Assembly (NCBI GenBank): GCA_963666735.1
Contig: OY762926.1
Coordinates: forward strand, 2,656,001 to 2,720,000
DNA length: 64,000 nucleotides
Origin: Gemmatimonadota bacterium
GTDB lineage: Bacteria; Gemmatimonadota; Gemmatimonadetes; Palauibacterales; Palauibacteraceae
Direction: 5' to 3'
In this document: positions 32,816 through 34,015 of the stretch, piece after piece
How the letters are laid out: the number at the start of each line of letters is the position of its first letter
Numbering within the stretch: the first letter of the stretch is position 1
Program-made: the position numbers and the translations under genes
The notes under the pieces: model-generated
The model's input: the letters and a program-made list of their open reading frames with translations, nothing else
Told to the model about the DNA's origin: nothing
Databases searched by the model: none

Positions 32816-32903
32816 CTCCTCCTCGCCGTCTGGCCGGCCTGATTCTCACGCAAGGTGACAGGTCGAGCAACAGGTCGAGCAACGCGAAAAAGCTTGAAAA
32901 AAC

Positions 32904-32932
32904 TTGCAGCACGGGCGGACGGACGGCATCAT
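32904..32932 (+). promoter_or_regulatory. sigma70-type promoter of stand-alone small transcript
   Basis: TTGCAG-N17-CATCAT preceded by two phased A-tracts (AAAAAGCTTG AAAAAACTTG). Confidence 0.65.
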
Positions 32933-32990
32933 GGCGTACAACAGGTGCTTTCATGCCCTATCCGTGAACCCCTTGGAAGGAGGTGATCTA

Positions 32991-33056
32991 GTGTCTGAAG
33001 GATGTAGAACCGGGTCTGACTCGGCACGGGCAAGCGATCGCCTCGAGGCTGCGTAA
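32991..33056 (+). CDS. 21-aa small ORF MSEGCRTGSDSARASDRLEAA
   Basis: GTG lies 7 nt after GGAGG of a maximal Shine-Dalgarno; TAA at 33054-33056. Confidence 0.45.
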   Translation: MSEGCRTGSDSARASDRLEAA

Positions 33057-33152
33057 CCGGTCTTGAACCGGTGGCGCTCGAGACATGCGCCGACCTGAAA
33101 GCTGCGGCGCCTCGCCGGCGTCGCGTCGAGTCAGGTTGCGGTTGAGACAAGA

Positions 33153-33191
33153 GCCGGCCGCGGGCTTCACGCTCGCGGCCGGTTTCCTTTT
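33153..33191 (+). terminator. Intrinsic terminator
   Basis: GCCGGCCGCGGGC-TTCAC-GCTCGCGGCCGGT then TTCCTTTT. Confidence 0.85.
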
Positions 33192-33211
33192 CGCCCTCCC
33201 TCCGCCCTAAG

Positions 33212-34015
33212 ATGTCGTTATTCAGCAAATACACCGGAGCCGGCAACGACTTCGTGATCGTGCGCGGTGAAGAACTGGGCCTCCGGGATGCGGGGGCTCT
33301 GGCCGCCGCGCTGTGCCCCCGCGCGACGGGTGTCGGCGTGGACGGCCTGATCACGGTCCGAAGCCTGAGCGAAGACGTCGTCCGTCTCCGGTTCTTCAAT
33401 CGCGACGGCTCCGAGTTCTCCACCTGCGGGAACGGTTCGCGGTGCGCGGCGCGCTACGCGGTGGACCGGGGGCTCGTGCCCCCCGAACACATCCTCGTGA
33501 CGGACGACGGTGAGATCCTGGCGCGGGTACGGGAGGACGGCGTGGCCCTCGAATACGCGCTCGATGCCCGCGTGGAACGCGAGTTGAGCGCGCGCGTCGG
33601 TACCGGGAAGCGGCGGGAACGCGACGCGTGGCTCGTGCGGATGGGGACGGCGCACCTCGTGATCCCCGTCCGGTCGGTGGACGTGGAGGATTTCGACAAT
33701 CTCTGCCGGCCCCTGCGGTGGCGAGAAGATGTCGGTCCGGGAGGGGCGAACGTGCACCTTGTCGCCCGCGACGGAGAGACCGCGGTCATCCGTACCTTCG
33801 AACGGGGCGTGGAGGCGGAGACGCTCGCCTGCGGCAGCGGGTGCATGGCGGCTGCGTTCGCGCTTCGGGCCGCGGGCGAGGCGGGGGACCGGGTCGAGTT
33901 CCTCGCCCGGTCCGGGGCCCGGTTGACGGTGGAGTTCATCGAGGCGGAGCGCATCCGCCTCACCGGACCGGCGGTGTTCATCTTCGATGGCGTCTTCCCC
34001 GAAGCCACGCGCTGA
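33212..34015 (+). CDS. dapF: Diaminopimelate epimerase
   Basis: KYTGAGNDF, CGNGSRC, RTFERGVEAETLACGSG. Confidence 0.95.
   Translation: MSLFSKYTGAGNDFVIVRGEELGLRDAGALAAALCPRATGVGVDGLITVRSLSEDVVRLRFFNRDGSEFSTCGNGSRCAARYAVDRGLVPPEHILVTDDGEILARVREDGVALEYALDARVERELSARVGTGKRRERDAWLVRMGTAHLVIPVRSVDVEDFDNLCRPLRWREDVGPGGANVHLVARDGETAVIRTFERGVEAETLACGSGCMAAAFALRAAGEAGDRVEFLARSGARLTVEFIEAERIRLTGPAVFIFDGVFPEATR

What the first reader, a model, noticed from the sequence alone, without database searches (positions are those of the whole stretch)
32858..33191. Stand-alone structured RNA with extended complementarity to the 16S rRNA 3' end and a 21-codon ORF ending in -AA
Seen: promoter TTGCAG-N17-CATCAT, preceded by phased A-tracts and a 12-bp tandem repeat at 32858-32881. 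Then AAGGAGGTGATCTAG (32977-32991), the ORF MSEGCRTGSDSARASDRLEAA*, and a strong intrinsic terminator before dapF. The ORF is embedded in a long nested fold (TGTCT/AGACA, AACCG/CGGTT, CTGACTCG/CGAGTCAG, closing two inner hairpins), leaving the SD just outside the closing stem. Established: AAGGAGGTGATCCAG is the complement of the typical 16S 3' terminus, so the match is 12 exact and 14/15 overall, far longer than normal SDs. C-terminal Ala-Ala is an ssrA-like ClpXP degron. Inference: an unannotated RNA that binds or titrates 30S subunits, or an mRNA for a disposable peptide in which the RNA is the functional part.
Basis: partly seen in the sequence, partly recalled or inferred. Interest (0 to 1): 0.8.

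Follow-up and report, generated by a model that had tools for sequence, protein, structure and literature searches.

The report
Ribosome-gripping mini-mRNA of Gemmatimonadota
This is a real, conserved, free-standing small RNA gene whose start can pair with the whole free tail of the ribosome's 16S rRNA and which carries a tiny reading frame inside a folded structure; it is a new lineage-specific form of the published but still unexplained 'rre' small mRNAs of Alphaproteobacteria.

Summary
Observation confirmed. The site pairs with this genome's own 16S tail over 17 contiguous bases, the best non-rRNA match in the genome. Promoter spacing, start and terminator are conserved. Helix P1 covaries at 10 of 11 pairs in 56 homologues. 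The design is published: rreB/rreR of Alphaproteobacteria (PMC5711450), with a 16-17-nt Shine-Dalgarno running into a GTG start, 30S binding and weak translation. Rfam CC2171 shares the 5' signature. This scan has met the kind before on other DNA, including Gemmatimonadota.

Here it forms a Gemmatimonadota family: one motif match in each of 55 of 201 genomes, GTG/TTG starts only. Frame and stop position are kept, but codons, not residues, are fixed, so the RNA and its translation look selected rather than the peptide. The -AA degron is not conserved (7 of 134 peptides), nor are the tandem repeat and outer helices. Downstream genes vary, so it is not a dapF leader. A 16S-tail mimic inside the ORF can pair with either the SD or a 3' strand; a ribosome-driven two-state switch is inferred, not shown. 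New variant of a known kind.

The parts
32858..32881 (+). 12-bp tandem duplication; strain-specific, not part of the element
   Evidence: present in 1 of 38 family loci
32887..32932 (+). Promoter: A-tract(s), -35 TTGCAG (32904-09), 17-nt spacer, -10 CATCAT (32927-32); start of transcription inferred near 32940
   Evidence: TTGC..-N17-CA(T/A)(C/T)AT-type match in 34 of 38 family loci, always with a 17-nt spacer of variable sequence; A-tract before -35 in 20 of 38; RNA contigs of relatives begin at 32944 and 32950
32955..32958 (+). Leader GCCC; candidate pseudoknot partner of the bulged GGGC at 33028-33031
   Evidence: GCCC in 70 of 70 genome-derived homologues; 94% of cells paired but no two-sided change; unproven
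32975..32991 (+). Extended Shine-Dalgarno: 17 contiguous pairs with the 16S 3' tail, including the first G of the start codon
   Evidence: the variants seen (C>T, A>G) keep pairing as G.U
32991..33056 (+). 21-codon ORF, GTG start, Ser at codon 2
   Evidence: frame kept in 66 of 70 genome-derived and 120 of 120 metagenome homologues
33012..33025 (+). P1 5' strand (codons 8-12), pairs with 33125-33137
   Evidence: 10 of 11 pairs with two-sided changes, 95.6% of cells paired, 56 sequences; recovered by RNAalifold
33034..33044 (+). Conserved core GCGATCGCCTC: P2 5' strand (pairs with 33117-33124) and also a mimic of the 16S tail that can pair with the extended SD (9 bp here)
   Evidence: P2 98% paired, 2 of 5 pairs with two-sided changes; SD:core 7-bp register paired in 56 of 56, one two-sided change in one clade
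33056..33116 (+). Variable inner domain (hairpins after the stop codon); length and sequence vary
33117..33137 (+). 3' strands of P2 (33117-33124) and P1 (33125-33137)
33151..33191 (+). Intrinsic-terminator-like hairpin and U tract
   Evidence: -30.6 kcal/mol; an equivalent hairpin follows the homologues printed; missed by the consensus scanner
33212..34015 (+). dapF (downstream neighbour in this family only)
   Evidence: Pfam PF01678
32090..32815 (-). Divergent DUF1707-domain gene (upstream neighbour)
   Evidence: Pfam PF08044

Best explanation
A separately transcribed RNA of about 250 nt of the rre type: a mini-mRNA whose job lies in how it engages the ribosome, not in its peptide. Shown by sequence comparison: own promoter and terminator; a 17-bp landing site for the 16S tail ending on a non-AUG start; a covarying P1/P2 stem whose 5' strand is the ORF; a stop about 18 nt after a conserved core. 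Inferred from rreB: it binds 30S tightly, is translated weakly, and is turned over in a start-codon-dependent way. Inferred from folding only (about 40% likely): it has two states. The core GAUCGCC mimics the 16S tail and masks the SD in the nascent or unzipped RNA, and is pulled into P2 in the full-length RNA, which opens the SD. A ribosome that escapes initiation unzips P1/P2 and stops just past the core, so each round of translation can reset the RNA to the masked, degradable state. Its level or state would then track the supply of initiation-competent 30S that accept a weak start. What reads that signal is not known.
For: Best non-rRNA complement of the 16S tail in the genome. One match per genome in 55 of 201 phylum genomes against 7 control hits; 44 TTG and 11 GTG starts, no ATG although allowed. 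Codon 2 is TCN in 43 of 44 examined although not in the pattern; the exception is a CRISPR spacer. P1 covariation: 150 two-sided cells against 50 +/- 7 in shuffles, 0 of 500 as high. Rare codons are fixed: GCA 153 of 161 (3% of Ala codons genome-wide), GAT 127 of 138 Asp (23%). Subfamilies read the same core in different frames. Four frameshifted copies still stop near the core; core-to-stop is 18 nt in 59 of 70 and 15-28 nt in all 70. Predicted SD:core pairing above 0.5 in 45 of 69 nascent and 9 of 69 P1-complete RNAs; median cost of the masked state 4.1 kcal/mol, 3.5 in the window. An anti-SD stretch also scores below shuffles in rreB (14 of 14), rreR (28 of 31) and CC2171-like loci (57 of 66). 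In two studies the only RNA contig laid on 1.4 kb covers just 32944-33131 and 32979-33132. Experimental analogue: PMC5711450.
Against: No experiment in any Gemmatimonadota. RNA evidence is contigs from relatives, without strand or ends; in two other studies the contig runs on into dapF (to 33263 and 33528). The SD:core helix has only one two-sided change, in one clade, not above shuffles by pair count (330 of 500). RNAalifold does not choose it and pairs the core with the neighbouring GGC instead. In the window's own subfamily the anti-SD signal is modest (mean z -0.96; 50 of 163 below -1.5), and 24 of 69 do not favour the masked nascent state. In the ribosome-footprint model SD:core pairing scored 0.00 with the ribosome near the stop, so the reset step is not supported by that test. 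Frame conservation also fits a functional peptide. The element is lacking beside dapF in G019 and G301 and was not found elsewhere in them, so it is dispensable.
Confidence: 0.62

Rival explanations
1. The peptide is the product; the long SD, weak start and fold only keep its output low.
For: Frame kept in 120 of 120 and 66 of 70 homologues; Ser2 in 43 of 44; an [RW]-A-S-[DG]-R motif and 19-22 codons in 130 of 134 peptides. PMC5711450 reports RreB and RreR as conserved within clades.
Against: The motif is fixed at codon level with rare codons; residues 3-13 change freely with P1 covariation; four frameshifted copies exist (some may be assembly errors); 11- and 14-codon subfamilies read the core in another frame; Planctomycetota versions have TC at codon 2 in only 5 of 19.
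Confidence: 0.15
2. A non-translated sponge that holds or titrates 30S subunits.
For: 17-bp match; rreB co-sediments with 30S, and its start-to-stop mutant stays in the ribosome pellet (PMC5711450).
Against: Frame and stop position are under selection; 20-fold rreB overexpression did not affect growth and its authors argue against sequestration.
Confidence: 0.11
3. A translated leader (attenuator) controlling dapF.
For: dapF follows in 6 of the 8 family loci scanned; dapF has no evident SD; two RNA contigs cross the terminator into dapF.
Against: In the sister family the next gene is a convergent mechanosensitive channel (6 loci); elsewhere it is a protease, kinase, hydrolase, antiporter or others, on either strand. 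G019 and G301 have dapF without the element. No amino-acid run in the peptide, and no conserved antiterminator appeared in the folds (terminator not in the alignment).
Confidence: 0.06
4. A guide or quality check for the 16S 3' end: it pairs with the whole tail to test or assist maturation of new 30S subunits.
For: Pairing covers the whole tail, beyond what initiation needs; rreR lies next to an RF-1-domain (arfB-like) gene in 22 alphaproteobacterial loci.
Against: No link to rRNA or maturation genes among the Gemmatimonadota neighbours scanned; does not explain frame and stop conservation; not tested here.
Confidence: 0.06

Closest known systems
rreB (Bradyrhizobiaceae) and rreR (Rhodobacter/Roseobacter) small mRNAs; Hahn et al., RNA Biol 14:1353, PMC5711450
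   Same: Stand-alone small transcript; 16-17-nt complement of the 16S tail ending on the G of a GTG start; short ORF (14 and 18 codons there); context not conserved between lineages; SD able to pair within the RNA. My 14-codon loci next to a tRNA and 18-codon Rhodobacteraceae loci fit their description.
   Different: Other phylum; 19-22 codons; unrelated peptide; longer RNA with its own covarying P1/P2 fold and a leader GCCC; TTG starts are the majority in the phylum (44 of 55). The paper found the type only in Alphaproteobacteria.
Rfam RF01867 CC2171 (Caulobacter sRNA; Northern-validated in Methylorubrum, bioRxiv 10.1101/2022.01.24.477521)
   Same: The consensus begins with the same extended SD plus GUG UCU; loci that pass its gathering score carry 21-25-codon ORFs after that GTG. 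CC2171 thus looks like the Caulobacterales/Rhizobiales form of rre; I did not find that link in print.
   Different: The window scores 23.5 bits against a cut-off of 75, with only the 5' end aligned well; 3 of 10 other Gemmatimonadota loci reach 28-37 bits. In CC2171 the closing stem starts at codon 3.
Extended SD motifs of ordinary mRNAs (S. aureus, PMC13009471)
   Same: Start-proximal extended SD pairing that supports weak non-AUG starts.
   Different: Those front normal genes or uORFs and are shorter; no stand-alone structured RNA. Phage genes with the same motif also mostly front ordinary ORFs (65 of 79).

Membership tests
rre small mRNAs (PMC5711450) | 16-17 nt complementarity to the 16S 3' end including the first base of the start codon | tested here: met
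   17 contiguous pairs, 15 Watson-Crick plus 2 G.U, so not perfectly complementary as in rreB
rre small mRNAs (PMC5711450) | GTG (non-AUG) start and an ORF under 30 codons, conserved in the clade | tested here: met
rre small mRNAs (PMC5711450) | Stand-alone small transcript with own promoter and terminator | tested here: inconclusive
   Conserved promoter spacing and hairpin, variable neighbours; RNA contigs confined to the element in 2 of 4 runs, crossing into dapF in the other 2; no ends or strand
rre small mRNAs (PMC5711450) | Tight binding to 30S, weak translation, start-codon-dependent decay | not testable with these tools
   needs fractionation, reporters and half-life measurements
rre small mRNAs (PMC5711450) | Sequence homology to rreB or rreR beyond the ribosome-binding site | tested here: inconclusive
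   Only a short GRTCGCC core is shared with rreB, which complementarity to the SD could produce independently; the paper itself reports no peptide similarity between RreB and RreR
Rfam RF01867 CC2171 | Covariance-model score at or above 75 bits | tested here: not met
   23.5 bits, E 0.01
tmRNA / ssrA-tagged product | tRNA-like domain and a conserved tag ending in AA | tested here: not met
   No tRNA or tmRNA in the window; the genome's tmRNA is elsewhere; AA ending in 7 of 134 peptides
6S RNA or any other Rfam family | Match at gathering score | tested here: not met
   4 matches up to E 5, none near its cut-off
Ribosome-dependent attenuator leader | Fixed downstream gene on the same strand and sensing codons | tested here: not met

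The most novel reading that the evidence does not exclude
rre-type RNAs (rreB, rreR, Rfam CC2171, and the Gemmatimonadota and Planctomycetota families found here) are one widespread, overlooked class of ribosome-operated RNA switch: a 16S-tail mimic inside a tiny ORF toggles between masking the giant SD and a downstream helix, in this family with a leader pseudoknot that loops out the initiation site, so that each act of translation resets or destroys the RNA and the cell gets a gauge or buffer of initiation-competent 30S subunits.
Probability: 0.27. Interest if true: 0.8.

Novelty: new variant of a known kind. Interest (0 to 1): 0.5.

Why it matters
The function of rre RNAs has been open since 2016, and I saw no follow-up paper in the listings. 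A diverse family with real covariation gives a structure model, separates RNA from peptide constraint, and points to exact mutations (core, P2 partner, frame, stop distance) that can be mirrored in tractable hosts such as Bradyrhizobium or Caulobacter. It also suggests that an Rfam 'non-coding' family, CC2171, is a mini-mRNA of this kind, and extends the type to at least two more phyla.

Tried and rejected
Rfam: no family at cut-off. tmRNA or tRNA: none in the window. Promoter/terminator scanner: missed both signals. Strict GTG patterns first suggested a family-restricted element (20 of 301 and 9 of 201 genomes); allowing TTG and one wobble gave 55 of 201, and exact patterns still miss variants, so the counts are lower bounds. 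Degron, tandem repeat, phased A-tracts and the two outer helices: rejected as conserved features. Leader pseudoknot: no compensatory change found, and the homologue sets were selected on GGGC, so it stays unproven. Ribosome-footprint folding gave SD:core pairing only at codons 8-11, where a ribosome would lie between the strands, so I disregard that result. Phage scan: 65 of 79 matches front ORFs of 35 codons or more, and most short ones are host-type rre loci, so no phage family. Two weak matches (L057, L058) do not appear among the motif-bearing loci. G035 and G025 lack a dapF match too, so their missing element may be an assembly gap. Supplement term searches of PMC5711450 (figures not readable) and PMC4117421 gave nothing on this family or on translation of CC2171. 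Look-ups of earlier findings by sequence and place were blank. No covariance model was built, and no protein homology or structure search was run on the 21-residue peptide.

Full report
What is there. Between a divergent DUF1707 gene and dapF lies a promoter-like TTGCAG-N17-CATCAT, a leader, AAGGAGGTGATCTA, a GTG-started 21-codon ORF (32991-33056), a folded region and a terminator-like hairpin. Taking the 16S tail from the genome itself, 32975-32991 pairs over 17 contiguous bases (two G.U). It is the best site in the genome apart from the rRNA gene; the next best runs are 15. Rfam gives no match at cut-off. The top hit, CC2171 (23.5 bits, cut-off 75), aligns well only over the extended SD and GUG UCU. 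The genome's tmRNA is elsewhere. The phylum is inferred: a record titled Gemmatimonadota (L106) encodes the same peptide as a same-genus genome (L061).

Conservation. 41 of 61 related genomes match the DNA at E up to 0.001. In 38 family loci the promoter pattern is found in 34, always with a 17-nt spacer; the tandem repeat is in 1 and the double A-tract in 2. With a pattern that allows any DTG start and one wobble, 55 of 201 phylum genomes have exactly one match, against 7 hits of the reversed control: 44 TTG, 11 GTG, no ATG (one of the 55, G114, is unpublished and enters only this tally). I examined 44 of the 55, leaving out G114 and ten family members seen earlier: 43 have TCN at codon 2 and an ORF of 11-25 codons followed by hairpins; the 44th lies in a CRISPR array. 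The element is dispensable: G019 (one contig, 95% complete) and G301 have dapF without it.

Structure. From 163 distinct homologues of the window's subfamily (109 after an 88% identity filter) I aligned 56, chosen by likeness to the window and by length, with 3' ends set by a duplex search, which leans towards P1. P1 (33012-25 with 33125-37) has two-sided changes at 10 of 11 pairs and 95.6% paired cells; P2 is 98% paired with two-sided changes at 2 of 5 pairs; no shuffle of 500 reaches the observed 150 two-sided cells. RNAalifold recovers P1 but not P2 as I drew it. A leader GCCC is present in 70 of 70 genome-derived homologues and could pair with the bulged GGGC to loop out the SD and start, but it shows no compensatory change.

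RNA or peptide. Translation is under selection: the distance from start to the GGGC motif is 26, 29 or 32 in 120 of 120 metagenome matches although 18-42 was allowed; 66 of 70 genome-derived copies keep the frame; the stop lies 18 nt after the core in 59 of 70. The peptide sequence looks secondary. The conserved codons are rare ones (GCA 153 of 161; GAT 127 of 138), residues inside P1 change with the pairing, four copies are frameshifted yet stop 16-28 nt from the core (some may be assembly errors), and the 11- and 14-codon subfamilies read the GRTCGCC core in another frame. Only 7 of 134 distinct peptides end in AA, so the degron idea fails.

Neighbours and expression. dapF follows in 6 of 8 family loci scanned; the sister family has a convergent mechanosensitive-channel gene (6 of 7 loci), and other lineages have unrelated genes on either strand (61 of 101 candidate frames were scanned, many without a Pfam match). 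In four RNA runs from four studies (relatives, contigs only), two have a single contig confined to the element (32944-33131; 32979-33132), one a contig 32950-33263 plus one on the upstream gene, and one covers most of the stretch with a contig from 32977 into dapF. This is a weak hint of a discrete transcript; strand and ends are not shown.

What is known. A scan of GTDB contigs stopped at 120 matches, nearly all Alphaproteobacteria; 117 of 120 have a 10-27-codon ORF. Of 20 tested, 4 pass the CC2171 cut-off and 19 hit it at E up to 0.01. Hahn et al. (PMC5711450; I read parts 1-4 of 6, abstract to discussion; supplement only term-searched, figures not seen) describe rreB and rreR: a 17-nt SD ending on GTG, 30S co-sedimentation, weak translation, half-life rising from 10 to 37 min when GUG is changed to UAG, no growth effect of overexpression, analogues only in Alphaproteobacteria, function unknown. 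For CC2171 I saw passages of bioRxiv 10.1101/2022.01.24.477521 (Northern in Methylorubrum) and one table line of PMC11701678; for extended SDs in S. aureus, passages of PMC13009471. Searches for a Gemmatimonadota report or a CC2171-rre link found none; the library lacks most subscription papers, and bioRxiv supplements are closed. In the phylum of the Planctomycetaceae-titled record L076, 19 of 121 genomes match and 18 of the 19 have a 10-22-codon ORF; TC at codon 2 in only 5. In the phylum of L119, 18 of 201 genomes match, with 16 of 20 matches of this kind. The scan's own notes list the kind in several other genomes, one of them Gemmatimonadota with a 'self-masking start'; I saw these after forming my reading (notes) and do not count them as evidence.

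Mechanism. The core GAUCGCC(UC) resembles the 16S tail. It can pair with the SD in 56 of 56 aligned sequences over 7 bp; one clade changes both sides of one pair, which is not significant by pair count. In the window this pairing is predicted at 0.5-0.98 for 7 of 9 transcript lengths ending between 33049 and 33129, falls to 0.01 in the full RNA (with one rebound at 33169, while the terminator is half made), and costs 3.5 kcal/mol there. Across 69 homologues it exceeds 0.5 in 45 nascent and 9 P1-complete forms. An anti-SD stretch is also seen in rreB, rreR and CC2171-like loci (mean z -2.3, -1.9, -1.5) but is weaker in this subfamily (-1.0). I therefore propose an RNA that is masked while made, opens when complete, holds a 30S at a weak start, and is unzipped and reset or degraded when a ribosome does translate it. 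The first two steps rest on folding predictions, the third on analogy with rreB, and the last is inference that my footprint model did not support.

Verdict. Real and conserved; works like rreB/rreR and meets their sequence-level definition, but is not a member of Rfam CC2171, and common ancestry with the alphaproteobacterial RNAs is undecided. New variant of a known kind; interest 0.5.

Noticed in passing
L360 (G117:C1, near 392885): The motif match lies in a spacer of a CRISPR-like array with GC-rich repeats; a false hit for this family.
   Followed up: no
L364, L366, L381 and similar viral contigs: Several recurring phage gene families use the same extended SD with GTG or TTG starts in front of 58-97-codon ORFs.
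   Followed up: no
L479 (G019): Both the RNA and the DUF1707 gene are missing; a gcvH-like gene end lies directly before dapF, a clean loss in a single-contig genome.
   Followed up: partly
L440-L458: Planctomycetota-side versions: several unrelated folds, 10-22 codons, often with an SD-like stretch inside the ORF; Ser2 not kept.
   Followed up: partly
L319-L329, L355-L359, L031/L193: Three further Gemmatimonadota subfamilies (11, 14 and 25 codons) with different folds; the 11-codon type is nearly invariant.
   Followed up: partly
window 33034-33041: The P2 5' strand GCGATCGC is a perfect palindrome, so RNA dimers or a DNA-binding site are possible; one clade breaks the palindrome.
   Followed up: no
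window 33192-33212: dapF has no evident SD; a CCCTCCCTCC stretch precedes its ATG just after the terminator.
   Followed up: no
L063, L081 and 20 more Rhodobacteraceae-type loci: rreR-type elements lie directly upstream of an RF-1-domain (arfB-like; name recalled) gene.
   Followed up: partly
L075: A record titled Cytophagales carries an rreR-type start at a contig end; probably binning contamination.
   Followed up: no
L126: Streptomyces match fronts a 51-residue peptide with a Cys-Cys motif, resembling a RiPP precursor (recalled likeness), not an rre element.
   Followed up: no
G000:C1:2979033 and 3568168 (- strand): Two near-identical copies of another AAGGAGGTGA-containing stretch with downstream hairpin-like sequence elsewhere in the genome, possibly a repeated or mobile-element-linked RNA.
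   Followed up: no
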